A DNA stretch of 64,000 nucleotides from Bdellovibrionales bacterium (GTDB lineage: Bacteria > Bdellovibrionota > Bdellovibrionia > Bdellovibrionales > UBA1609), in contig JBFWON010000003.1 of NCBI GenBank assembly GCA_050250515.1, positions 395 to 64,394 of the forward strand, given 5' to 3'. A model generated the notes under the pieces. The model was not told where the DNA came from and made no database searches. It saw nothing but the letters and a program-made list of their open reading frames with translations. The stretch's first letter is position 1; each line of letters opens with the position of its first letter. Both the position numbers and the translations under genes were made by a program. Below are positions 35,871-56,079 of this stretch, one piece after another.

Positions 35871-35910
35871 GCGGGAGTAGCTCAGTTGATAGAGCGTCGC
35901 CTTGCCAAGG
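35871..35910 (+). pseudogene. 5' half of the host tRNA-Gly(GCC), interrupted by the integrated element (contains the attL core 35892-35910)
   Basis: GCGGGAGTAGCTCAGTTGATAGAGCGTCGCCTTGCCAAGG followed by non-tRNA sequence. Its acceptor strand pairs with CTCCCGC of the fragment at 56025-56079. Confidence 0.9.
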
Positions 35911-36033: not shown

Positions 36034-36109
36034 GCGCGAGTAGCTCAGTTGATAGAGCGTCGCCTTGCCAAGGCGAAGGTCGCCGGTTTGAGCCCGGTCT
36101 CGCGCTCCA
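36034..36109 (+). tRNA. tRNA-Gly(GCC), complete, element-borne
   Basis: 76 nt; acceptor stem GCGCGAG/CTCGCGC; anticodon arm TCGCC-TTGCCAA-GGCGA; T-arm GCCGG-TTTGAGC-CCGGT; encoded CCA. Possible promoter TTGAAG(35977)-N18-GATAAT(36001). Confidence 0.97.
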
Positions 36110-36161: not shown

Positions 36162-36449
36162 ATGAATTCATCGACAACTGAAACTTCCAAACCAAATGAT
36201 CGACGCATTGACCGCCACTATATTTGGCGGAAGCCCACTATCGTTGACCGGCATCCGGATTTTCTAGCGTATCTCGACACCAAACCGAAATATATCGACG
36301 CGCTTTACGAGCGCCGACACCGCCTTCGTCAGCTTGAATGGAATCGAATCACCACGGAAAATTCTGCGGGCAAGCCTCCAAGAAAACTAATAGACATGGA
36401 TAACCTGAAGGTGACGGCGCGCCTGACGCTGGTCACGCGCTCAGAATAG
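36162..36449 (+). CDS. Small hypothetical protein
   Basis: 95-aa ATG ORF between the tRNA and the integrase stop; no recognisable motif. Confidence 0.35.
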   Translation: MNSSTTETSKPNDRRIDRHYIWRKPTIVDRHPDFLAYLDTKPKYIDALYERRHRLRQLEWNRITTENSAGKPPRKLIDMDNLKVTARLTLVTRSE

Positions 36450-37802
36450 TTCCCTCAATTTTCGTTTAGCCTTAAGTCCCTTGAGAGCATCCATTGCTTT
36501 GTTAAACAGCGGGTCATTTGGATTTTGATCTTCGGCAATGCACGGCCACTTGGCCGCCAACACACATTCCAGGACGAAGCCATACCAGTTCTGCGGAATG
36601 CCCGCGATTCCAAGAGGCATCGCTTCTTCCCACGGGCGTTTATCCTTCACAGGCAGCCTTGCGTAGTGCGCATCCAACATCCTGCTGCTCATGTGTCCGG
36701 CTGTATCCCTGATTTCTTTTTGTGGGAGCGAAGAGTGTGAAAGCCACGTCAGCGCCGTGTGACGAAGGCAGTAGCGATTGAGTCCTTTGGCCGCCCCTCC
36801 CAAGGCATCGTCGATCACCTGTCGAAAGTATTTGGCGCCCGCCTTCGTTCCAATGGGAGAAACCTCACAGCCGGTAACGAGCAAGATGGCGTCAACAATC
36901 GGGGTTCGCGCGACAGAAATTTCCGCCACGCCGTCACGGGCGGTCTTCAATGACTTCAGTTTCCCACCAGTGAAGGTCTGATTGACGTAAATGGAACTTG
37001 GCAAAACTTTAGCGCAACATGGCTCCTGGGGTCGCCAACCAAATATCATCTGCAAAATCAGAGCGCTCCGCAGCTTCCCACCATGCCCGTCGTCTGCATG
37101 AACCAACTCCCTGATGAACTCAACAGCCTCAGTCCGCTCCAAGGGACGCTGCTTGCGGGAATCATACTCAACGCCCTCGTCCTTCAGTTGGGATTCCTGG
37201 GGAATTGTGACGTTCGTAAACAACCCATCCACGTCCTTCACGCCAATTGCCTTGGCGATTGCTTTAATATCGGTTCTCCAACCACGGAGCGTTTCGGGTG
37301 CTTTATGGTTATCTGGATTCATCCAAGACTTAAAACAGGATTCGACAATAGCTGGTGTCAGTGAGTTGCTTGTTCCTGCGTGCCGGGCCAATTCACGGCA
37401 TAGGCCCATCACGTTTGTCTTCGACGAACGGCTGACGTAACGTTGGCAATAGGACTCGCAGTAGGCTCTCAACTTTTTTCCAAGGTCGGTCTGCCCAAAA
37501 TTGAGATCGAACTCTTTTTTTCGTGACGAGTTCCGCTTCAGCGGCGACACCACCCTGGCACGAACCCATTGCTCACGCTCATGCTCCGTGGCCAACTCCG
37601 GAAGGCACTTGGTTAAGTTGTTCCACACAGCTATGGCCGCAGCTTCGGAGAACGCAATGGTCTTTGTAAATTTTCGGTTTTTGCCGCTGCGATAGAACTC
37701 AATCTCGTATCGCGTCTTTTGCTTGTCGTGGACAATGGCCAACTTCAGCCACTGGTGGGCTTTAATGATTTGCCGCCATTTTTGAGTCCGAGTCGATTTC
37801 AT
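36441..37802 (-). CDS. Tyrosine recombinase/integrase
   Basis: Catalytic pattern GWRPQE (R), LKT (K), YCLRH (HxxR variant), AGH and HYA (Y); adjacent to the att site. Confidence 0.9.
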   Translation of the reverse strand: MKSTRTQKWRQIIKAHQWLKLAIVHDKQKTRYEIEFYRSGKNRKFTKTIAFSEAAAIAVWNNLTKCLPELATEHEREQWVRARVVSPLKRNSSRKKEFDLNFGQTDLGKKLRAYCESYCQRYVSRSSKTNVMGLCRELARHAGTSNSLTPAIVESCFKSWMNPDNHKAPETLRGWRTDIKAIAKAIGVKDVDGLFTNVTIPQESQLKDEGVEYDSRKQRPLERTEAVEFIRELVHADDGHGGKLRSALILQMIFGWRPQEPCCAKVLPSSIYVNQTFTGGKLKSLKTARDGVAEISVARTPIVDAILLVTGCEVSPIGTKAGAKYFRQVIDDALGGAAKGLNRYCLRHTALTWLSHSSLPQKEIRDTAGHMSSRMLDAHYARLPVKDKRPWEEAMPLGIAGIPQNWYGFVLECVLAAKWPCIAEDQNPNDPLFNKAMDALKGLKAKRKLRELF

Positions 37803-45737: not shown

Positions 45738-46907
45738 ATGAATCCAACAACAGCAGGAAAAGCCGGGTTATTCGCACTCGTAGTGGGCGGGCTCGCACTT
45801 GTGTTTTTTGGCTCCCGCCACGGGGGCGTGGCGGCGCAGTCGAATCCATTTAAACTTCACGCTAAATCCCGAATAATTGGAGTTCACGGTTGGACACTCG
45901 GCCAGAGCCTCGACCTGGCCAATTACAAACCCACCGACGACTATGAGAACGTTGAAAATCAGACCGAATATTGCGAGAAAGATCATTTCATTCAAAGCAT
46001 TGGAAAAGCTCGGTGCTCCGTAAATATTGAAGAGCTAAACATTTACCATGTAACCACTAGATGCAATGTCCGGTCTAAAGAAGATTCTTCCAGGTGGGTA
46101 ACACTTTGTCTCACACCTAGCAGTCACCAGATTTACAAGATTTCGGGAGAATTTCCCTCAAAAACCCCCGAAGTTTTAGCGGTGCTTAATGACCTGAAGC
46201 AAAGGTACAGCGACGCAAAACGAAGCAATGATGGCGCGATGTATACCTTTGACGATGATCGTAAAACGCTGTCGTTGATAATCGAACATCCTTTTTATGC
46301 ACTTAGTGCAATTGATTGGAACCTAGAAAGGCAAGCGGCAGAAGAAATCAAGAGCCCACCTCCAGTAGAGCGGACCGTTGCGTCAACTACCATCAAGGCA
46401 ACAGTCAAAGCCAATGGCATTAAAGTTTTCAAAATTTGCGATGACCAAATTCAAAACGATGGCGGCATTGTTGCTAGCCAGATGGTCCGTGACCTCTCTA
46501 TAAAATCTGTTGGAGTGCTATACGATACCACTGGCCAGCACGATGAATTCGCAAATAAATTACGTTCGGTTTTTGAACAAACAAGTAAGACGGCAGGAAT
46601 CGCAATTGAATCGTCCAATACCTTTATTGAAGGCGACTTTGACTTCAAGGCCCAGTTGACAATGATGAGATCGCGCAAGCCGGATGCGGTCCTTGTGATC
46701 GGATACCGGGATAGTTCCAACAAGATATTGGACCAATCCCGACAACTTGGATTGCAACAGCCAATCATCTATCTGGGCTGCGTTCCCGACGAACAGAAGA
46801 ATATGGCGGCTCAAACTGAAAAAGAAGAATCCGAAGTTCCCAAACCTGGACTCTTGGGCGTATTCGGTTCCGGCAAGGCCGACACCAAGGGCGTCCGGAA
46901 GGAGTAG
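45738..46907 (+). CDS. Exported protein with a C-terminal partial LivJ-type periplasmic-binding domain
   Basis: N-terminal TM/signal; C-terminal VGVLYD...GDFDFKAQLT...KPDAVLVIG...QLGL. Confidence 0.65.
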   Translation: MNPTTAGKAGLFALVVGGLALVFFGSRHGGVAAQSNPFKLHAKSRIIGVHGWTLGQSLDLANYKPTDDYENVENQTEYCEKDHFIQSIGKARCSVNIEELNIYHVTTRCNVRSKEDSSRWVTLCLTPSSHQIYKISGEFPSKTPEVLAVLNDLKQRYSDAKRSNDGAMYTFDDDRKTLSLIIEHPFYALSAIDWNLERQAAEEIKSPPPVERTVASTTIKATVKANGIKVFKICDDQIQNDGGIVASQMVRDLSIKSVGVLYDTTGQHDEFANKLRSVFEQTSKTAGIAIESSNTFIEGDFDFKAQLTMMRSRKPDAVLVIGYRDSSNKILDQSRQLGLQQPIIYLGCVPDEQKNMAAQTEKEESEVPKPGLLGVFGSGKADTKGVRKE

Positions 46908-46910
46908 AGG

Positions 46911-47285
46911 TTGGATAGACTCTCGATAATCTTAGCGATGATTGTCTTCACTACGACCCCACGGGCGCTGGCGTCTGGATGGTGTGAATCTAGTGCCGAT
47001 ACCAAGAAGGCCAAAGTCAGCTTCCACAAGACCTGCAAGGGTCACTACGAAGCCCAACTTATCCTAGCCGACTACTCGTTGGGCAAGACAGGCTCATCAC
47101 CTTCGCTTCAGAAGCACTCGGATGACATATTCAATTTTTGCCTCTGTGTTGCTAACAAATTCGCCGTGCAGAGCACGGCCAATGAAAATTGCGAATTCTC
47201 GGTAACGGACGCAATCCCTTGGGAAAAACTCGAAATAGCATGGCAAAAGACATGCGGGAGGATGAAATGGAGTTCAAATCAATAG
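46911..47285 (+). CDS. Secreted Cys-containing hypothetical protein
   Basis: Signal peptide, six Cys, 124 aa. Confidence 0.55.
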   Translation: MDRLSIILAMIVFTTTPRALASGWCESSADTKKAKVSFHKTCKGHYEAQLILADYSLGKTGSSPSLQKHSDDIFNFCLCVANKFAVQSTANENCEFSVTDAIPWEKLEIAWQKTCGRMKWSSNQ

Positions 47286-47926
47286 CGGCTACCCAAACGT
47301 GGTGGGCTGGCATTATTGCGCGAAGCCTACCAGCAATCGCGCTCTTTGTGTCGGCCTGTTCGTCGGCGCCCAAACATGAGATTGCCTCATCGGAGATCGT
47401 GCCGGATGCAGTCGTAGCCAGAATTGACGACTTAAAGGCACGCCCCGACTGGGTTTCAGAGTCACAGCCGTTCAAAATTAAGGATGGCACCGTGACCTCA
47501 ATAGGCATCACAACCGCACCAGCCGATGGCACGCGCGTTGAAGCCTTAACGCGAATCGCTCAAAATAGCGGAAAAGCCGCCATTGCCGCCGCAGTAGAAT
47601 CAAGACTCGAATTCATTTTTCAAAACGCTGAAGAGGGAGTCAGCTTCGACTCGACACAGGCGCGATACATAGGAAGCGAAGCCAGCAAAATCGTCACTTC
47701 TTCTATCCGCAGTGGACCTGTTTATTGGGAGAAGATCGCAACGTCATCTGACGGCGGAGAACGAAAGACCGTTTACAAAGTATTTGCCGCAGTCAACATG
47801 CCTGAGTCTGAACTAAAGAAAGCCATTTTGGAAGCCGCCCGAAAACGCGACGGAAAGTCCGGTCTGTCCGCCAATTTTTCCAAGAAGGTCGATGAGCAGT
47901 GGGATAGGTTTGCTTCCGGCGAATGA
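47267..47926 (+). CDS. LPP20-like lipoprotein
   Basis: Lipobox VSAC; RPDWV motif. Start refined to ATG 47267 (GGAGG RBS); the track ORF starts at 47189. Confidence 0.65.
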   Translation: MEFKSIAATQTWWAGIIARSLPAIALFVSACSSAPKHEIASSEIVPDAVVARIDDLKARPDWVSESQPFKIKDGTVTSIGITTAPADGTRVEALTRIAQNSGKAAIAAAVESRLEFIFQNAEEGVSFDSTQARYIGSEASKIVTSSIRSGPVYWEKIATSSDGGERKTVYKVFAAVNMPESELKKAILEAARKRDGKSGLSANFSKKVDEQWDRFASGE

Positions 47927-48621
47927 AAACCTTCAGATTTCCCATTCTGTTGCTTGCGGCGGCCCTGCCTTTGCCGAAGGTGATGGCAGAAGCCGCTGGC
48001 GGCAGAGTAATTACATTAACGTGCATTGGAACCGGAGCATCTTCTTCAGTTGCGCGACAGAGTGCCATTAGCGATTGTAAACGGGACGCGGCCAACTTTC
48101 TTTCCAAATCGACTGAGGTCAGGTCGCTTACGGTCGAAACCGAAGAGCGAGTTTCATACCACTCGTCAGTACAGGAAGACCTGACTGTTAAAAATTTGAA
48201 TTGTGACCCTATCAATGAGGCCGTGCAAAAAATTGACGATTCATATGAAGTTAGGCTTCAGTGTCGCTTCGACCTTTCAAAGGCGGAAGTCGCTGAAACA
48301 GTGAAAGGGCCAAAGAGGCAACGGGCCAACGCGAGCTTTTTCGACTCCAGCGGGCGCAACGTTGCCACTGCCAATGCCGGTGAATTTATCCAGAGTGACA
48401 AATATCCCATTTCAATTTCTTCAATACCCATGTGTACCGAGGTTCTCATTAGGGGTGAAAAACCCCGAAGTGTCAAATGCACCGCGAATCCAACCGTATT
48501 GAATATGGAACCTACTGATGTGGAAATAATCATTCGGTCGAGCGGATTTATTCCAAGGAAGTTCAAAGTAAGCCCCATGGATAGAGAGAGGAGCTTTCAT
48601 GTCACTCTGGAGCAGAACTAG
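47923..48621 (+). CDS. Secreted hypothetical protein
   Basis: Signal peptide, 4-bp overlap with the upstream gene, GTG...ARQSA motif reminiscent of LPP20-like domains. Confidence 0.7.
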   Translation: MKTFRFPILLLAAALPLPKVMAEAAGGRVITLTCIGTGASSSVARQSAISDCKRDAANFLSKSTEVRSLTVETEERVSYHSSVQEDLTVKNLNCDPINEAVQKIDDSYEVRLQCRFDLSKAEVAETVKGPKRQRANASFFDSSGRNVATANAGEFIQSDKYPISISSIPMCTEVLIRGEKPRSVKCTANPTVLNMEPTDVEIIIRSSGFIPRKFKVSPMDRERSFHVTLEQN

Positions 48622-49624
48622 AATATTTTTGGTTTTTCCGCTATTAATCTCATGCGCGTCCACCGTGGACCGAAAACAGGCAGCGGCGCCAACCTATAGA
48701 CTTCCCACGCCAATAATAACCCTGCCGATAGCAATTCAGAGTTGGCTCAGTCAACCTTCCAACTCTGATAAGAGCGCATCGGAAATCGCCAACGGCATTA
48801 AAAGTAGAATGTGCTCGGATGGCCGAGCCAAGTGGAATCCAACCTATAGAGTTTCGGCATTTATTCCAAAACCGCCGTCTGGGACTGCGCTCGATGAAGC
48901 TACTGCACTCCGTGAGCGGTACGCCGCACGAATACGAAAATATTTAAAGTCCGACTTGCTCTTCAATATTTCCTATGACCCAAAGAAAAACATTCCCCGC
49001 CACAATCTAGGCGAGATTGATGTCGCGCACGGCTACCAAGTTTTTCCGCAATCCTTTGAGAAGATTCCTGCTTTTTTCCAGAGCCAGGAAACCACTAACC
49101 CAGACAAATATAGATTCCAAGTGACACAATATGACCCCATCCTTGTTGTCTTTCAAAGTAGTGGGAAAATGATTCTCGTTCCAAGCGACAATAGCTTTAG
49201 CAGGTACGAGAATTATAGGTCCGGATTTCTAGTGGAGGTTGTCAAAGACGCATGCGCACCCACGGGAGGAAATTGCGTTACCACCATGAACTACGTTATG
49301 GACCTACAGCTATTGCGAGACGGCTATGCGCTATTCATGTCCAAGGAAGAACAGATGGCCACATTTGAAAATCTGAAAAGCCATATGGAATTTCCCAGCA
49401 AAGACTACTTCGGCGAAACCTACAATCCGGGCGAAGCGCCAAAGTTTACCATCGGGCGTCTTCTTCAGGAGTCTGACGAATTTTGGAGAGCGTATTTTTC
49501 GTACTTTACCACGCTGAAGGAATCGCCAGGAGCCGACCCCAATTTTGTGGCCTATGACGTATCGCTGAATCTGGACACGTTCTGCAAATATGGGCGCCCC
49601 AAAGTTGACCTAGTATCGAATTAG
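48599..49624 (+). CDS. Hypothetical lipoprotein
   Basis: Lipobox LISC, 341 aa. Confidence 0.72.
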   Translation: MSLWSRTRIFLVFPLLISCASTVDRKQAAAPTYRLPTPIITLPIAIQSWLSQPSNSDKSASEIANGIKSRMCSDGRAKWNPTYRVSAFIPKPPSGTALDEATALRERYAARIRKYLKSDLLFNISYDPKKNIPRHNLGEIDVAHGYQVFPQSFEKIPAFFQSQETTNPDKYRFQVTQYDPILVVFQSSGKMILVPSDNSFSRYENYRSGFLVEVVKDACAPTGGNCVTTMNYVMDLQLLRDGYALFMSKEEQMATFENLKSHMEFPSKDYFGETYNPGEAPKFTIGRLLQESDEFWRAYFSYFTTLKESPGADPNFVAYDVSLNLDTFCKYGRPKVDLVSN

Positions 49625-49749: not shown

Positions 49750-50172
49750 ATGGACACCTTGACCAAAGCCCAGCGTAGCGAGCGAATGAAGCTTGTGAAA
49801 GCAAAGGGCACCAAACCTGAGAAGTTGGTAGCAAATATTTTGAAGTCAATGCGGGTCAAGCCCCACACTCATGACAGTTCTGTGCCGGGCAAACCGGATT
49901 TTTCTTTTTCTAAGCGGAAGAAGGCAGTTTTTGTTCATGGCTGCTTCTGGCATAGGCACGCGTCGTGTCACAACGGAAGAAGACTGCCTAAGTCTCGGCT
50001 GGATTTCTGGGAAAATAAATTGGATAAAAATAGAAGGCGTGATGCGCGAATTCTTCGTCAACTCAATCGCTTAGGTTGGAGCTATTTGGTTATTTGGGAA
50101 TGCCAACTGGCCGCTCCAGATAGATTGGAGAAACGATTGCGCAGGTTTTTGGCATTGGGGGACCGACATTGA
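49750..50172 (+). CDS. vsr: Very short patch repair endonuclease Vsr
   Basis: MD..T..QRS..M, TKPE, GKPD, FVHGCFWH and IWEC motifs. Confidence 0.96.
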   Translation: MDTLTKAQRSERMKLVKAKGTKPEKLVANILKSMRVKPHTHDSSVPGKPDFSFSKRKKAVFVHGCFWHRHASCHNGRRLPKSRLDFWENKLDKNRRRDARILRQLNRLGWSYLVIWECQLAAPDRLEKRLRRFLALGDRH

Positions 50173-51407
50173 ATTCAGTTGAGCTTTTCACGGGCGCGGG
50201 TGGTCTTGCGCTGGGGGTTTCCGCCAGCGGATTCAAGCATCTTGCTGTTGTCGAATGGGACCATGATGCTTGCAATACGGTCCGACTAAATCAAGAGCGC
50301 GGAAATACCCTCGTTGGGTCTTGGCCTCTTCATGAAATGGATGTTGCCCAGTTCAATTTTGATGGAATTGAGCAGGAAGTTGATCTGTTGGGCGGTGGTC
50401 CGCCATGTCAGCCCTTTTCACTCGGTGGAAAGCATAAAGGCCACACCGACGAACGAAATATGTTTCCGCAGGTTTTTCGTGCGGCACGTTCGCTTCGTCC
50501 TAAAGCCATTCTAATTGAAAATGTAAAAGGGCTGGCGCGTGCGTCGTTCAAAGACTACTTGGACTACATTCTTCTTCAGTTGGGTACTCCAGAAATTCAG
50601 AGAAAAAGAGACGAGGAATGGCGCGATCATGCCGCTCGTTTAGTCAAAGTGAAGTCCAACAAAGTAAAAACTGATCTTGAATACGATGTCCAAGTAAAGC
50701 TGATAAACTCCGCTGACTATGGTGTTCCTCAGCGTCGTGAGCGAGTTATCATTGTCGGATTTCGACGAGATTTGGGCGTGAAATGGACTTATCCTCCGCC
50801 CACACATTCGCATGAAGCGCTATTGTATTCACAGTGGGTCACGGGCGAGTATTGGGAGCGCCATGGAGTTCCTAAGAAGCATCGTCCGTCCGCCCCTAGC
50901 CGTTACAAAGGAAAGATTGAAAATCTAAAGACATTGCTGATGCCTCCAGCGGAGCTTCCATGGGTCACTGTCCGAGATGCGCTTACTGGAATGCCATGCC
51001 CTGAGCGGGACAAAGAAAAGAAGGAATTTGAGAACCATCATTTCAATCCCGGCGCAAGGTCGTACCCCGGTCACACAGGAAGCCCACTCGATGAGCCAGC
51101 GAAGACTCTGAAGGCGGGGGACCATGGAGTGCCAGGCGGAGAAAACATGCTTCTGCGCCCGGATGGAACCATTCGTTACTTCACGGTTCGTGAGTGTGCC
51201 CGCCTTCAAACTTTTCCAGACAATTATGTGTTCACTGGAGCTTGGTCGGAAGCCATGCGCCAGCTTGGAAACGCCGTGCCCATGAGACTTGCTGAAATAA
51301 TCGCAACTCGAATCAAGGAAGAATTAGTCGCCGCGAAGAATCGTGGCAAATCAACACGCGGAAGGAATCGCAGCTTTGAAGAACCAACCATACAATCCCC
51401 TGGATAA
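50169..51407 (+). CDS. DNA (cytosine-5)-methyltransferase of a type II RM system
   Basis: FTGAGG (motif I), GGPPCQPFS (IV), ENV (VI), PQRRER (VIII), RECARLQTFPD (IX), GNAV (X). Confidence 0.97.
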   Translation: MNSVELFTGAGGLALGVSASGFKHLAVVEWDHDACNTVRLNQERGNTLVGSWPLHEMDVAQFNFDGIEQEVDLLGGGPPCQPFSLGGKHKGHTDERNMFPQVFRAARSLRPKAILIENVKGLARASFKDYLDYILLQLGTPEIQRKRDEEWRDHAARLVKVKSNKVKTDLEYDVQVKLINSADYGVPQRRERVIIVGFRRDLGVKWTYPPPTHSHEALLYSQWVTGEYWERHGVPKKHRPSAPSRYKGKIENLKTLLMPPAELPWVTVRDALTGMPCPERDKEKKEFENHHFNPGARSYPGHTGSPLDEPAKTLKAGDHGVPGGENMLLRPDGTIRYFTVRECARLQTFPDNYVFTGAWSEAMRQLGNAVPMRLAEIIATRIKEELVAAKNRGKSTRGRNRSFEEPTIQSPG

Positions 51408-52017
51408 GCATAATCTTGGCAAAAGCATCGCGGAGTCGATGCTTGCCAGCGACGTACAACCCTTACCACCATCTAATTTTGAGGGCGCCGGAATCTACGC
51501 GATCTACTATGTCGGCGACTTCACACCCTACAAGGCACTGAAAGAAAAAAATCTGAAAGAAAATTATTCGGCCCCAATCTATGTGGGCAAAGCCGTGCCA
51601 GCGGGCGCTCGTCGTGGTGGATTGGGACTCGATGCGAAGCCAGGTAAAGTTTTGTTCAATCGGCTTGCCGACCATGCCGCCAGCATTGAGCAAGCTAAGA
51701 ATCTAAAGTTAAGGGACTTCAAATGTCGGTATCTTACAGTGGATGACATCTGGATTCCGCTTGGCGAATCCCTTCTGATCGAGATGTTTCATCCTCTCTG
51801 GAACCATAAGATTGATGGTTTTGGAAACCATGACCCTGGCGCAGGAAGACACAAGGGTAAGCGTTCGGCATGGGATGTAATTCATCCTGGAAGAAGTTGG
51901 GCCGATAGGCTTCAACCTAACCCCAAGAGTCAGGAGGCATGGTTGAAAGAAGTGAAGGAATTTATTGCCAAAGGGCGTAGGCCAGAAACGACGATTAAGA
52001 TACCCAAGGGCGTATGA
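51343..52017 (+). CDS. Eco29kI-family (GIY-YIG) restriction endonuclease
   Basis: YNPLD, GAGIYAIYY, PIYVGKA, WIPLGE and GFGNHDPG signatures. Confidence 0.93.
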   Translation: MANQHAEGIAALKNQPYNPLDKHNLGKSIAESMLASDVQPLPPSNFEGAGIYAIYYVGDFTPYKALKEKNLKENYSAPIYVGKAVPAGARRGGLGLDAKPGKVLFNRLADHAASIEQAKNLKLRDFKCRYLTVDDIWIPLGESLLIEMFHPLWNHKIDGFGNHDPGAGRHKGKRSAWDVIHPGRSWADRLQPNPKSQEAWLKEVKEFIAKGRRPETTIKIPKGV

Positions 52018-52856
52018 GGTGCATGATTATGACGACGTTGATATTGAGTATCTTTTTTGCTTCCCACTTCGCTGGCGCGCAAATAAGTCAATTGGAAAAC
52101 ATTTATCTGGGCATCAAGGCCGCAAAATTTGCCGAGGCGTCTAGGGCATTCCAAGCCAGTAAGTGTGATGAAGATGAAGTTTGTTTCGAGGGAAAAGATC
52201 AACAGGGCAAGGAATTGAAAATACTGCCTTCCGAAGTTCGACTGGACATTGCACTATTCAAATCCATTAAGTTCAACTGCGATCAGACCACGAACAAGGG
52301 GTGGGAATCGTTCCAAACCGGCTGCTACCAGGGAATTGAAGTAGCAAGACAGCAGGGGAAAATTGAGCGAATAAAGAGAATTTCCGGAGTTGATTTGTCT
52401 GCGTTTTTTTCTGCCTATGATCGGAGACATGATGAATTGAAGGCGGAGGAACAACGGAAGGGCGAGGAGCGCGACAAGATAGCACAGAAGAAAAGGGCCG
52501 CCGAAGAGGCAGAAAGAAAACAGAGGGCAGCCTCAGTTCAATTAAAAAATTCTCCAGAAGGAAAGAAGTGCCAGGCGATGTCGGAAGCCGCTTCAAGCAA
52601 AAAAATGTATTTGATGTGGGAACAGAACTTAAATTCCATTAAACGAGATGCTCAAGACGCTGGGGTTTTTACCGCAAAAATGCAGGCGGATATTGACCAG
52701 TCACTTTCTATGAGGCGCGCCTTTTTAGCTCAGAAAGAGAATGCGGAGAAAAAGATAAAGGCAATGGTTCAAGTGCAGGTGACAGCCGCGCGTTGCAAAG
52801 AAATTCTTCCGAATTTTGGGGCAAGCATGGCCGACAAATATCAGGGAGAGGAATAA
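52014..52856 (+). CDS. Secreted coiled-coil hypothetical protein
   Basis: Signal peptide; charged coiled coil; 4-bp overlap with the REase stop. Confidence 0.7.
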   Translation: MRCMIMTTLILSIFFASHFAGAQISQLENIYLGIKAAKFAEASRAFQASKCDEDEVCFEGKDQQGKELKILPSEVRLDIALFKSIKFNCDQTTNKGWESFQTGCYQGIEVARQQGKIERIKRISGVDLSAFFSAYDRRHDELKAEEQRKGEERDKIAQKKRAAEEAERKQRAASVQLKNSPEGKKCQAMSEAASSKKMYLMWEQNLNSIKRDAQDAGVFTAKMQADIDQSLSMRRAFLAQKENAEKKIKAMVQVQVTAARCKEILPNFGASMADKYQGEE

Positions 52857-53559
52857 AATCAAGGGGGGTGTCGAAGCGGACCAAAGCCCAGGAAATGTAA
52901 ACAAATCATTCTTGTATTCCGATATTTGTTTAGCCCCAAGAACATTGAATCCAAGTGGAACCTACAGAGGCCAGGCAAGCGGCGTGAAAATTAAAGCCCT
53001 ATTCAACAGCAAAGCGATCATACCCGTTTCTCTGATTGGCTACCTAATAATTGCGACAATCTTGGCTTATTCCAACAGCGGCACGATGGAGGAGTTAAAG
53101 TCGAATTTCGGTCACTATCTCCATGCTGGACTTAACGAACTTTCGATCTGGTTATTTATCCTGTCCTTGTCATGGATTCTCGATGCGAAACAGGAGATTG
53201 TACGATTTGGCAGGAAATCGAAGTGGTTTAAGATTTCGCAGTTGGTGGGCCAAATCATCCATAAGGATGCGACATTCGGAAGCGACTCAATCTATGAACT
53301 GTACACTGAATTGGTTTCCATCAATCCAAACGCGACAGTTAATCCGGGTACAAATCACAATTCCACCAATATGAACATCGCCAACATTCAGGAGCACCTA
53401 GTCCAATATCTGAGCAATGTCCTGTTCCACGCCAGCTTCTCAAAAAATTACCGAAGCAAGAAAGTGTCCTCAGAGGGAGATTTTTGGACTATGCTTCACC
53501 TCTTAAGAGCAAAGGTACAGAGTGAAGTGATCGAAGGGAGTGGCGGCGATGCCCATTAG
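52816..53559 (+). CDS. Hypothetical membrane protein (2 TM)
   Basis: Two hydrophobic helices. The true start is probably GTG 52984. Confidence 0.55.
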   Translation: MGQAWPTNIRERNKIKGGVEADQSPGNVNKSFLYSDICLAPRTLNPSGTYRGQASGVKIKALFNSKAIIPVSLIGYLIIATILAYSNSGTMEELKSNFGHYLHAGLNELSIWLFILSLSWILDAKQEIVRFGRKSKWFKISQLVGQIIHKDATFGSDSIYELYTELVSINPNATVNPGTNHNSTNMNIANIQEHLVQYLSNVLFHASFSKNYRSKKVSSEGDFWTMLHLLRAKVQSEVIEGSGGDAH

Positions 53560-53983
53560 TAAAGAGAAGTCCGCGCAAATCGTTGACCAAATTTACAAGC
53601 ACATGGACAAAATTTCCGTACATGGAGGAATCGCGCCTGAAATCGCTGGCAGGGAGACGCAGCGCTTTCCTGGGGGGCGAGATGATTCTTTATTCAGCTA
53701 TAGCTTTCATTACAAAGGGAAGCAGTTCGTAATTAAGGCCCTCCCAAAAATGTTTCGACTGATAAACGGAGCTTCCTTTGAACTCTTCCTCATTGAACAG
53801 TCTGGAGCCACTAGTCACGACGCCGAACAACTCTATCCGCCCATTCCTGAAACCGTTTGGGATGGCGCCCGCTACGACAGCCATATAGATGGAAAGCTTG
53901 AAAAGATATATGAGCATGTTCGCAAAGAGAAAGAGAACCTAGTTGACAGAAAACTTGGTGAAAATTTCTTTGATGAAGAATGA
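53540..53983 (+). CDS. Hypothetical protein
   Basis: 147-aa ORF. Likely start is ATG 53549 after GGGGAG. Confidence 0.6.
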   Translation: MAAMPISKEKSAQIVDQIYKHMDKISVHGGIAPEIAGRETQRFPGGRDDSLFSYSFHYKGKQFVIKALPKMFRLINGASFELFLIEQSGATSHDAEQLYPPIPETVWDGARYDSHIDGKLEKIYEHVRKEKENLVDRKLGENFFDEE

Positions 53984-53994
53984 CCCCAAGCTTT

Positions 53995-54513
53995 TCAGGT
54001 AGAAAAAATCATGGAAAACAAGGCCACTGTGTAGCCGACAAAAAAGAGCCAGGGCAACGACAACTCAATATGCGTTAACGGCCAATAGACTCTTCTGTCG
54101 GTTCCCGACTTCAAAAGAAGTTCCCACTCGGTTTTGCCATACGGTCGCGCCGGTAGTTTTTCTTCCAGTACGCCAATGATTTTAAATTTGGCGCCATTTA
54201 ACTGCTTGTATGAAATTATAAGTCTCCACCAGAGGAACAGTTCCAGGCAAAGAACAAAGTAGGGGAAAAACAACAGGTACGGTTGTCGAAACGAAATTCC
54301 CTTTTCAATGATGGCAGGTCCCGCTGACAAAACCGCGCCATTTATGCTCAGGAAAAAGGCGTTTGCCACGTCCCGCCTGGCGCTGATCTTGTCAGCCATT
54401 TCGACATACAGTTTGTATTGCTCCAGGATTGTTGCCTGGCAATCAGCTTTCCCCGCGAACTTCGCAAGCACCGCCTGATTCCAAAGGTGATCTGATATTT
54501 TGTCCTTGCTCAT
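53995..54513 (-). CDS. RipA-family (octameric membrane protein-like) putative pore-forming effector
   Basis: LEQYKLYVEMADKISARR..AN.FFLSIN, W..LI.SYKQLN.AKF.II..LE..LP and EW motifs; TM helices. Start refined to 54513 (ATGA overlap with the TIR stop); the track ORF starts at 54555. Confidence 0.75.
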   Translation of the reverse strand: MSKDKISDHLWNQAVLAKFAGKADCQATILEQYKLYVEMADKISARRDVANAFFLSINGAVLSAGPAIIEKGISFRQPYLLFFPYFVLCLELFLWWRLIISYKQLNGAKFKIIGVLEEKLPARPYGKTEWELLLKSGTDRRVYWPLTHIELSLPWLFFVGYTVALFSMIFST

Positions 54514-54902
54514 CGGCTGCCGTGAATTAGCAATTTCAAATTGTCCCATGTCCAATCATACATCTTGTCCGCAGCACTCGCCGTCGTCGGTTTGGTGCAG
54601 ACTTTGTCCTTGTATCCGGTCAAAAGAAAATAAGGAACGCTTTGGTCTTTGGCCGCTTGCAACTCGAACGCGACGCCCGTCGCCGTATGGGTGTTCGCTC
54701 CGCAGATCACCGCGACAACATCGGCCCGGCCAACTCTCGCTTTTACCTTAGTCTTCCAGTCACCTTGCAGTGGCTCCTTCACTGATCTGTCGATAATATC
54801 GAACGGCGAGTCGGTATGTTTCGCTTGTCCGGCGAACAGATTTCTCAACGCTTCGTCATTGTCGTAGTCAAAACTGATAAACACATTTTTCTTGCTTGCC
54901 AT
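54510..54902 (-). CDS. TIR domain protein (ThsB/MTH538-like, DUF1863)
   Basis: VFISFDYDND, DRSVKE, GVAFELQAA (putative catalytic Glu), YDWTW. Start refined to ATG 54902 (GAGGG RBS); the track ORF starts at 54968. Confidence 0.9.
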   Translation of the reverse strand: MASKKNVFISFDYDNDEALRNLFAGQAKHTDSPFDIIDRSVKEPLQGDWKTKVKARVGRADVVAVICGANTHTATGVAFELQAAKDQSVPYFLLTGYKDKVCTKPTTASAADKMYDWTWDNLKLLIHGSR

Positions 54903-54910
54903 TTTCCCTC

Positions 54911-55492
54911 CTAAATTCCGCGAGCAATGGCCTGCTCGATTGCAGATGTAATTTGGGCTGGTTCCCAACCAGCTATCGGTGCGCCAATTTCTTTCAAAAC
55001 GGGCGGCGTGCGTCCACGGGATTCCTTTAGTCGCACGCCACAGACCGGAATCCTGTGCGCGATTGCCGTTTCAACTTCCCATTCCACCCAATCTCTCCAA
55101 GCAGTTCCGTTGCCCACCATACAAATGAGCACATCCGACGCTAGAATCTTGGACTTGAGCGCCTGTCGGATATAATTGCTGCTATCGGACCTCACTGCCC
55201 GCCTAGAAAGGGAGTCGTCCACATCGAACTGAAGGTTTGGATTTGTTAGCATTAACCGGAAGCCCTGAACAAGCCGCAGGTCGTTTGAGTGAAAGCTAAT
55301 GAACGCCTTCCTGCGGCGAGGATGGTACGACAGGTGCCCGGCGTATGCCCGCCTAAGTTCGGAAAGGGACTCGTAGCCCCGGCTGGCTAATAAATTGCCC
55401 AGACGCTGATCATCCCGAACATTGAGATCAAGGCCATATGTGGCCTCGACCGTTTGAATCTTGGTGTCGCCCCGCTTAGCTCTGAACATCAA
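54911..55492 (-). CDS. TIR domain protein (ThsB-like) with an extra ~55-aa N-terminal domain
   Basis: KAFISFH, YIRQAL..KI..SDVLICMVG..T...WVEWEVE (catalytic Glu). N-terminal RGDTKIQTVE..YGLDLNVR.D..LG.LL extension. Confidence 0.9.
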   Translation of the reverse strand: MMFRAKRGDTKIQTVEATYGLDLNVRDDQRLGNLLASRGYESLSELRRAYAGHLSYHPRRRKAFISFHSNDLRLVQGFRLMLTNPNLQFDVDDSLSRRAVRSDSSNYIRQALKSKILASDVLICMVGNGTAWRDWVEWEVETAIAHRIPVCGVRLKESRGRTPPVLKEIGAPIAGWEPAQITSAIEQAIARGI

Positions 55493-55513
55493 TCCTGGAC
55501 CAGCTTCAGGCTT

Positions 55514-55717
55514 CTATTTTTTTCTGTTGTAAGGACTTTGATTTGTCGGCTTCAGGGAAATTCCCTCTTGTGAAGCGCGATTGCGAACGGCTTCAGGTGT
55601 CCGTCCCAGTTTTAGGCCGATGACCCGCGTGGGCGTGTTTTGGTTCGCCAGCTTTTGAAGCTGCGAAACCTCGCCTTGACTCCAACCCTTGCCCGAATTC
55701 CTGGTGCTCTTAGACAT
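55514..55717 (-). CDS. Small basic Myb/SANT-like HTH protein
   Basis: WSQGEVSQL..LA..NTPTRVIGLKLGRTPEAVRNRA; poly-G RBS; first gene of the TIR operon. Confidence 0.75.
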   Translation of the reverse strand: MSKSTRNSGKGWSQGEVSQLQKLANQNTPTRVIGLKLGRTPEAVRNRASQEGISLKPTNQSPYNRKK

Positions 55718-56024
55718 GAATCCCCCCCCTTATGAAATATGGACCCACAAACTATGGGATTGAGCATGGCCCCCGTCAAGGCGATGGGAAAATTTAAACA
55801 CTCATCTGTCCCGTCCCTTAAACCCACTGCGGGATTTGAGAATCGTGGCCCGATGCTGGGTTTACCCTTGAAAATGACGCGCCGTTATGAGACGATTAAG
55901 ATGTTCCTTCCATCTCCCCAAAAATAAGCCTCTACAACTCGTTTAGTTTACCGTGGCCCATAGGCATTGCTTCGCCCTGGCGTCACACGCACATCCCCAA
56001 TCGACCTTGAAATTCAGTGTCCGT

Positions 56025-56079
56025 GAGCGTCGCCTTGCCAAGGCGAAGGTCGCGGGTTTGAGCCCCGTCTCCCGCTCCA
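56025..56079 (+). pseudogene. 3' part of the host tRNA-Gly(GCC) (contains the attR core 56025-56043)
   Basis: GAGCGTCGCCTTGCCAAGGCGAAGGTCGCGGGTTTGAGCCCCGTCTCCCGCTCCA; lacks the 5' acceptor strand and most of the D-arm. Confidence 0.92.

What the first reader, a model, noticed from the sequence alone, without database searches (positions are those of the whole stretch)
53995..55717. Four-gene HTH - TIR - TIR - RipA-like membrane effector operon: candidate Thoeris-like antiphage system without ThsA
Seen: four tightly coupled minus-strand genes (gaps of 21 bp and 8 bp, then an ATGA overlap) at the right end of the island, near an RM system. They encode a 67-aa Myb-like protein, two different ThsB/DUF1863-type TIR proteins that both keep the catalytic Glu (WVEWE, GVAFE), and a 172-aa membrane protein with RipA-family motifs. 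Established: Thoeris TIR proteins sense phage and make NAD-derived signals that activate ThsA effectors such as SIR2-SLOG or TM-Macro. No SIR2, SLOG, Macro or caspase gene was recognised anywhere in this island. Inference: the TIR pair activates a small oligomeric membrane pore, through a signal molecule or direct contact, giving abortive infection. The effector has no obvious ligand-binding domain, so the mechanism would differ from canonical Thoeris. I cannot confirm it is absent from current defence catalogues.
Basis: partly seen in the sequence, partly recalled or inferred. Interest (0 to 1): 0.82.

Follow-up and report, generated by a model that had tools for sequence, protein, structure and literature searches.

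The report
Thoeris variant with RipA-like membrane effector
A mobile island carries two TIR alarm-enzyme genes and a small membrane-protein gene that likely form an untested variant of the Thoeris anti-phage system; only one TIR and the membrane gene travel together in other bacteria, and relatives of that TIR suggest the membrane protein may respond to the alarm molecule so far known only to switch on a protease.

Summary
The four genes are there as described. They are a 67-aa basic protein, two ThsB-type TIRs (E139, E80) and a PF24838 8xMP/'RipA family' membrane protein, at the end of a 20-kb tRNA-Gly island. The four-gene unit is not conserved; the unit that travels is TIR + 8xMP. A ThsB TIR lies directly upstream in 25 of 80 genome loci (7 of the 7 closest). 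The 193-aa TIR (0 of 33 loci) and the small gene (0 of 3 homologues) were not found beside 8xMP elsewhere. TIRs up to 79% identical alternate between 8xMP and the type IV caspase, and both effectors share operons. So 8xMP likely is a signal-gated membrane oligomer, possibly for N7-cADPR (inferred, untested). Small membrane effectors without a ligand domain are already known (Thoeris types V, VII), so this is a new variant, not a new logic. The effector is not DUF2270, SLATT or PycTM by Pfam. I could not see whether it is ThsJ (type IX) or one of 29 predicted effectors in Yirmiya et al. This scan noted TIR-8xMP pairs before on other DNA (e1-9714299, e1-9890803).

The parts
53995..54513 (-). 8xMP / 'RipA family' membrane protein, 172 aa, three hydrophobic segments; core, predicted effector
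   Evidence: PF24838 116 bits; AF2 pLDDT 91, long helices 23-70, 78-117, 146-171; hydropathy peaks near residues 49-67, 77-99, 149-171; homo-oligomer score 0.60 vs best control 0.00
54510..54902 (-). TIR2, short ThsB-type TIR (130 aa, E80); core, predicted signal synthase; close relatives sit before either 8xMP or a caspase
   Evidence: PF08937; partner analysis and tree; in a contig from another study 12 of 16 listed differences are third-position and 9 of 13 changed codons synonymous (one contig, depth 3.2)
54911..55492 (-). TIR1, ThsB-type TIR with a conserved ~55-aa N-terminal extension (192-193 aa, E139); accessory, likely an added sensor
   Evidence: PF08937 57 bits; 263 homologues; TIR fold, best Foldseek hit 8fz9 E 3e-8; 0 of 33 loci with 8xMP
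55514..55717 (-). 67-aa basic small protein, weak HTH; accessory leader gene of defence-like operons
   Evidence: HTH_38 E 0.049; 3 homologues in 400 other genomes of the phylum, none beside a TIR or 8xMP
55751..55779 (-). sigma-70-like promoter match upstream of the four genes (not above chance)
   Evidence: 3 sites found vs 2.2 +/- 1.8 in shuffles
56025..56079 (+). right island end: 3' piece of a split tRNA-Gly(GCC)
   Evidence: 59-nt repeat, 93% identical to the full tRNA; 19-bp core shared with the left piece and matching acceptor stems
35871..35910 (+). left island end: 5' piece of the split tRNA-Gly(GCC)
36034..36109 (+). complete tRNA-Gly(GCC) inside the island, with a different acceptor stem; the only GCC tRNA-Gly found in the assembly
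36441..37802 (-). tyrosine integrase-like gene of the island
   Evidence: Phage_integrase E 8.5e-6, 26.1 bits, just under the 27.1 cut-off
49750..52017 (+). Vsr, C5 methyltransferase and Eco29kI-type endonuclease: defence context on the same island

Best explanation
The 130-aa TIR and the 172-aa 8xMP membrane protein are a conserved gene pair that likely works as a Thoeris-type anti-phage system: the TIR would sense infection and turn NAD+ into a small ADP-ribose-derived signal, which would bind between subunits of a predicted ring of the membrane protein and breach the inner membrane, stopping the phage with the cell. The 193-aa TIR is likely an added sensor and the 67-aa gene a generic leader gene, both picked up locally. 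The most likely signal is N7-cADPR, the type IV molecule (about 40%). Shown: genes, families, co-occurrence, effector swapping among close TIRs. Predicted: oligomer. Inferred: signal, pore, defence.
For: ThsB TIR directly upstream on the same strand in 25 of 80 genome loci, including 7 of the 7 closest homologues. The pair also occurs on plasmids and viral contigs. One locus has a TIR-like domain fused to 8xMP (L082; weak TIR Pfam E 0.005-0.007). Distribution is patchy: 2 of 61 relatives, 4 of 401 genomes of the phylum over the cut-off. Neighbours include RM, GmrSD, OLD and STING-domain genes. Among TIR2's 7 closest plasmid relatives (53-59%), 2 precede 8xMP and 5 a caspase. Caspase- and 8xMP-linked TIRs reach 79% (L168/L006) and 75% (L152/L141) identity. 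On a 61-TIR tree the label changes 8 times, at least 5 forced by well-supported branches. Caspase and 8xMP are co-operonic in L001, L083 and L052. Homo-tetramer score 0.60 vs best control 0.00; the mark was reached by 20 of 30 solved pairs and 1 of 23 single chains; runs agree in at least 93% of contacts, partner pLDDT at least 74; four copies, unlike the calibration. The middle copy uses two faces, as in a ring. 16 of 22 highly conserved residues lie in that interface, which covers 82 of 172 residues (hand count).
Against: No phage, toxicity or chemistry data. 47 of 80 8xMP loci have no Pfam-confirmed TIR within 400 bp (4 of those have one by my own profile only), mostly Actinomycetota, so the family also exists without ThsB. 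8xMP also pairs with a second TIR clade only 3-19% identical to TIR2 (13 rows), which may make another signal. Yirmiya et al. show that TIRs of one cluster can serve effectors with different signals (SLATT-linked TIRs cluster with type II but make cADPR). My caspase-linked TIRs are type IV by gene order and by a Glu at about position 79-80; none is a tested TIR. The partner counts are biased by fetching most loci with 8xMP. No ligand pocket was modelled.
Confidence: 0.68

Rival explanations
1. It is an already described type: 8xMP is ThsJ (type IX Thoeris), whose domain the text of Yirmiya et al. does not name.
For: ThsJ is not described in the text read. TIR-8xMP pairs exist in low-GC Bacillota elements (L147, named Brevibacillus by NCBI; L149; L083).
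Against: The type IX TIR makes 3'cADPR, whereas TIR2's close kin sit with caspases. No Bacillus among the organism names listed for 32 plasmid records, and no B. cereus or Psychrilyobacter among the few named of 120 listed homologues of the Brevibacillus protein (most rows unnamed, so weak).
Confidence: 0.13
2. Direct contact or reversed roles: the membrane protein senses infection or binds the TIR, and the TIR kills by draining NAD+.
For: TIR-like domain fused to 8xMP in L082; Yirmiya et al. caution that some untested TIR partners may work this way.
Against: TIRs 75-79% identical serve a soluble caspase, which in type IV is switched on by a diffusible molecule; 8xMP accepts two very distant TIR clades, easier through a small molecule than through a shared surface.
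Confidence: 0.1
3. One reading: HTH regulator, two cooperating TIRs and the pore are all required.
For: Tight spacing; contigs bridge the genes.
Against: Neither HTH nor full-length TIR1 homologues beside 8xMP in 80 loci; no 8xMP or HTH in 33 TIR1 loci, 23 of them with at least 1 kb downstream; 3 HTH homologues lead unrelated genes.
Confidence: 0.05
4. Not defence: 8xMP is an envelope or homeostasis protein, as reported for Francisella RipA, and the TIR link is passenger clustering on islands.
For: RipA is a homo-oligomeric inner-membrane protein linked to LpxA (PMC4322802, PMC4688374, passages). That the NCBI family name refers to this RipA is my inference, not tested. Many actinobacterial 8xMP genes have no TIR neighbour.
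Against: Overlapping start/stop coupling to a TIR across many phyla, the fusion, swapping with the caspase and the patchy distribution.
Confidence: 0.04

Closest known systems
Type IV Thoeris (short TIR + caspase-like ThsE, N7-cADPR; Rousset et al., bioRxiv 10.1101/2024.10.24.620036, passages read)
   Same: Short TIR with the catalytic Glu near position 80 (E79 in the paper, E80 here); TIR2's close relatives sit directly before such caspases.
   Different: The effector here is a membrane protein, not a protease; no caspase was hit among the island ORFs scanned.
Type V Thoeris (ThsB + ThsF/DUF2270, 3'cADPR; Yirmiya et al., bioRxiv 10.64898/2025.12.03.692087)
   Same: Small three-helix membrane effector without a recognised ligand domain, modelled as a ring with pockets between protomers.
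   Different: 0 of 115 8xMP members hit PF10028 at E 0.05; hhalign against 2 DUF2270 proteins gave probability 1%, E 0.051 over 94 columns; different TIR partners.
Type VII Thoeris (ThsB + ThsH/SLATT, cADPR; same preprint)
   Same: TIR plus small membrane effector, in similar phyla.
   Different: No SLATT Pfam hit in 115 members; ThsH is modelled as a filament.
Type IX Thoeris (ThsJ) and the untested effectors of Figure 1C of the same preprint
   Same: TIR-adjacent effectors, several with TM helices; 29 types were predicted in all.
   Different: Cannot tell: figures and Tables S1-S3 were not visible.
Pycsar PycTM (PF18967)
   Same: Small membrane effector gated by a nucleotide signal.
   Different: hhalign probability 2%, 37 columns; partner here is a TIR, not a cyclase.
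Francisella RipA (presumed namesake of the family; link recalled, not tested)
   Same: Homo-oligomeric inner-membrane protein with essential cytoplasmic domains (PMC4322802, passages).
   Different: Described as a virulence and envelope factor interacting with LpxA, with no TIR or defence role in the passages read.

Membership tests
Thoeris (family) | ThsB-type TIR with intact catalytic Glu | tested here: met
   PF08937 over cut-off for both TIRs; PADLOC ThsB1 hits; E139 and E80 conserved
Thoeris (family) | TIR in a conserved operon with a separate effector gene | tested here: met
   25 of 80 genome loci plus plasmids and viral contigs
Thoeris (family) | TIR makes a diffusible ADPR-derived signal that activates the effector | not testable with these tools
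   needs LC-MS and toxicity assays
Thoeris (family) | Protects against phage | not testable with these tools
   needs plaque assays
Thoeris types I, II, III | SIR2-SLOG, TM-Macro or SLOG effector in the operon | tested here: not met
   no such Pfam/NCBIfam/PADLOC hit in the four genes or other island ORFs scanned
Thoeris type IV | Caspase-like effector beside the TIR | tested here: not met
   next gene is 8xMP; the genome's caspase operon is on contig C25
Thoeris type IV | TIR of the caspase-linked clade | tested here: met
   TIR2 lies in a 100/98 clade of 30 rows with 6 caspase-linked TIRs; reference TIRs defined by gene order, not by the tested proteins
Thoeris type V | Effector is DUF2270 (PF10028) | tested here: not met
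   0 of 115 members; remote kinship inconclusive
Thoeris type VII | Effector has a SLATT domain | tested here: not met
   0 of 115 members hit a SLATT model at E 0.05
Thoeris types VI, VIII, X, XI | Effector is DUF6650, CMP hydrolase-TPR, ion channel domain or hydrolase | tested here: not met
   only PF24838 hits the effector; type X and XI effectors known to me only by these words from the text
Thoeris type IX | Effector is ThsJ | tested here: inconclusive
   ThsJ not described in the text; indirect searches uninformative
8xMP / RipA family (PF24838) | Score over the curated cut-off | tested here: met
   116 bits vs 30
8xMP / RipA family (PF24838) | Forms an octameric ring | tested here: inconclusive
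   only four copies could be folded; self-association passed its controls, 0.60 vs 0.00; no solved relative found

The most novel reading that the evidence does not exclude
8xMP/RipA-family proteins are a widespread, uncharacterised class of nucleotide-gated membrane rings and the second effector of N7-cADPR: type IV-clade TIRs have repeatedly swapped a protease for this pore, and in this genome the island's pore and the caspase on another contig could answer the same alarm.
Probability: 0.33. Interest if true: 0.68.

Novelty: new variant of a known kind. Interest (0 to 1): 0.45.

Why it matters
It gives a testable function to a large uncharacterised family (3,890 clusters at 50% identity) and names a candidate new Thoeris effector. 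If the signal is N7-cADPR, it would be a second receptor for that molecule and a new binding fold, and would show one TIR signal wired to either a protease or a pore. If not, it is one more of about 30 predicted Thoeris configurations.

Tried and rejected
Four-gene conservation: rejected. Known-system profiles: no PADLOC or NCBIfam hit for 8xMP or the HTH. Solved relatives of 8xMP: none by sequence or Foldseek (0 at E 0.001); the wide structural search gave only helical bundles, best Z 9.9, under the ~13 expected to matter for helical proteins, which shows neither a known nor a new fold. Remote kinship to DUF2270 or PycTM: weak, not significant (only 2 DUF2270 sequences). Cap2/Cap3 conjugation tail on TIR1: most relatives end in RRS (80 of 120 'ARRS'), so no conserved C-terminal Gly. 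Identity of ThsJ: not resolved. TIR2 in viral contigs: 7 short 16-residue matches, ignored. Two TIR-8xMP DNA queries against E. coli genomes: no match at blastn sensitivity. Sequencing runs: no RNA holder listed. Promoter and terminator scans: not above chance. Literature searches that found no paper linking 8xMP/RipA to TIR or defence: 1 irrelevant paper; 0. The two primary RipA papers (PMC3294868, PMC2573376) are not held.

Full report
Observation. Both TIRs pass Pfam ThsB_TIR and the last gene passes PF24838 8xMP, whose members NCBI and UniRef call 'RipA family octameric membrane protein'. The 67-aa protein has only a sub-threshold HTH hit. The genes end a 20-kb island bounded by two pieces of a tRNA-Gly(GCC) that share a 19-bp core; the island carries an integrase-like gene, a complete tRNA-Gly of its own and a Vsr-methyltransferase-Eco29kI module. 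The split-tRNA reading was prompted by scan note e1-4631050 and checked. Contigs from the possible source run and a second run of the same study bridge the genes.

What is conserved. The best 80 of 249 8xMP relatives in GTDB genomes were fetched. A Pfam-confirmed ThsB TIR lies directly upstream on the same strand in 25 of 80, including the 7 closest; 8 more have a TIR_2 protein within 400 bp; 47 have no Pfam-confirmed TIR that near, mostly Actinomycetota. The pair also occurs on plasmids of Polaromonas, Synechococcus, Haematospirillum, Novosphingobium and Paenarthrobacter and on viral contigs. One of the plasmid regions opened, Leptolyngbya, showed no annotated TIR. L082 has TIR2-like plus a TIR-like-8xMP fusion (the fused TIR scores only E 0.005-0.007). 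The family is large (3,890 clusters at 50% identity) and patchy (2 of 61 relatives; 4 of 401 genomes over the cut-off).

What is not conserved. No HTH or full-length TIR1 homologue was found by tblastn in the 80 loci. TIR1 belongs to a tight 192-aa family (263 hits; TIR fold). In 33 metagenome loci, 23 with at least 1 kb downstream, none holds 8xMP or the HTH; neighbours there are caspase, SIR2, ThcB4, JAB-domain genes and further TIRs. The HTH has 3 homologues in 400 genomes of the phylum. One leads a nucleotidyltransferase-like gene behind a divergent IrrE-peptidase/HTH pair (the nucleotidyltransferase label is my recall; Pfam gave none); none is beside a TIR or 8xMP. In three other loci a DUF2188 gene takes the leader position. 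So the four-gene layout is a local assembly around a two-gene core.

The effector. AlphaFold2 gives a confident helical monomer (pLDDT 91) with three hydrophobic segments. No solved relative was found. Four copies folded together scored 0.60 against a best control of 0.00; that mark was reached by 20 of 30 solved pairs and 1 of 23 single chains; runs agreed in at least 93% of contacts, partner pLDDT at least 74; the job is unlike the two-copy calibration. The middle copy uses two faces, as expected in a ring. Conserved polar residues (Q32, Y33, S44, R46, R47, N51, K109, E117, E129, Y143, E150) lie outside the hydrophobic segments or at their edge, and 16 of the 22 most conserved positions fall in the interface, which covers 82 of 172 residues (hand count). 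A pocket between protomers is inferred, not modelled.

The signal. Searching plasmids with TIR2, the 7 best records (53-59%) split into 2 before 8xMP and 5 before a caspase. The Bosea caspase is absent from the record's gene table and was found by my profile; it may be truncated. In the phylum, the 4 other hits at 58% or more are 3 8xMP and 1 caspase. Over all loci, 29 distinct TIRs at 50% or more (own included) are 23 8xMP and 6 caspase, a count biased towards 8xMP. A tree of the 61 TIRs directly followed by one of the two effectors (19 of 80 rows with neither were left out; midpoint root, no direction claimed) needs 8 label changes, at least 5 forced by well-supported branches; labels are still clustered (shuffled mean 17.1). 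L168 (caspase) and L006 (8xMP) are sisters at 100/94 and 79% identical. Both effectors share operons in L001, L083 and L052. Yirmiya et al. use the same co-occurrence as consistent with a shared signal for ThsH and ThsI. Type IV TIRs make N7-cADPR (Rousset et al.). Against this: 8xMP also pairs with a distant clade of 13 TIRs, TIR clusters in the preprint mix signals, and none of my caspase-linked TIRs is a tested protein. The window's genome has its own TIR-caspase-TIR operon on C25; cross-talk is possible but untested.

Comparison with what is known. Yirmiya et al. (bioRxiv 10.64898/2025.12.03.692087; parts 1-6 of 8 of the text read, figures and tables not visible) predicted 29 Thoeris types and validated V-XI, including membrane effectors without a recognised ligand domain. 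So 'no ThsA, no ligand domain' is an established pattern. 8xMP is not DUF2270, SLATT or PycTM by Pfam (0 of 115 members), and profile comparison to DUF2270 and PycTM was not significant. ThsJ (type IX) is not described in the text, and the unseen supplements bear directly on whether 8xMP is ThsJ or a Figure 1C effector; given how common the pair is, I think it more likely than not that it is among their predictions. Passages only were read of Rousset et al., PMC13069673, PMC13243611, PMC13712596, PMC13434031, PMC13728456, PMC4688374 and PMC4322802. Full-text searches for 8xMP/RipA with TIR or defence found nothing relevant. This scan has noted TIR-8xMP pairs in other genomes (e1-9714299; e1-9890803, which reaches the same signal inference; I saw it). 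These notes are not independent support.

Verdict. A real, intact instance of a widespread, apparently untested TIR + 8xMP Thoeris variant, here with an extra roaming TIR and a small leader gene. New variant of a known kind. Interest 0.45; 0.68 if the effector proves to be a second N7-cADPR receptor (probability about 0.33).

Noticed in passing
window 35871-35910, 36034-36109, 56025-56079: The island splits a tRNA-Gly(GCC) into a 5' and a 3' piece (19-bp shared core, matching acceptor stems) and carries a complete copy with a different acceptor stem, the only GCC tRNA-Gly ARAGORN finds in the assembly. Same layout as scan note e1-4631050.
   Followed up: yes
G000:C25:12065-13907 (L178): Same genome holds a TIR-caspase-TIR operon (type IV Thoeris layout) with a divergent ImmA/IrrE-like peptidase gene upstream (peptidase label from motif recall).
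   Followed up: partly
L082:1486-2747 (G054): TIR2-like gene followed by a 265-aa protein with a weak N-terminal TIR fused to 8xMP.
   Followed up: partly
P0066; P0278: RyR domain fused N-terminally to 8xMP (RyR E 2e-33); P0278 has a C-terminal extension that looks similar by eye but has no Pfam hit.
   Followed up: no
L124:1417-2772; L123; L122: Homologues of the 67-aa gene lead other defence-like operons; in L124 it precedes a nucleotidyltransferase-like gene behind a divergent IrrE peptidase/HTH pair. It may be a general leader gene of immune operons.
   Followed up: partly
L003, L005, L006 (upstream of TIR); L074: DUF2188 occupies the leader position before TIR-8xMP in three loci; DUF1508 lies nearby in L074. 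Yirmiya et al. list DUF2188 as a putative effector.
   Followed up: no
L003, L005, L006, L168: These TIR2-clade ORFs have a ~20-aa hydrophobic N-terminal extension not present in the window's TIR2.
   Followed up: no
model of window 53998-54513: SPX (inositol-pyrophosphate-binding) domains recur among structural matches (Foldseek rank 2, TM 0.54; VIA Z 8.7-9.5), below the level meaningful for helical bundles.
   Followed up: no
L097, L098, L105, L110, L117: TIR1 relatives sit in multi-TIR arrays with ThcB4 (type III Thoeris, over cut-off in L097) and a JAB/Cap3-like gene (L105).
   Followed up: partly
L052:6952-8130; L056:5598-6725: Prokaryotic STING-domain genes near or directly after 8xMP in two actinobacterial loci.
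   Followed up: no
window 45738-49624, 52014-53983: Run of island ORFs with no or only weak family hits, several with signal-peptide or lipoprotein-like starts.
   Followed up: no
P0486-P0501 (8 proteins): A 263-266-aa subfamily of 8xMP with an extra C-terminal hydrophobic domain of no Pfam family.
   Followed up: no
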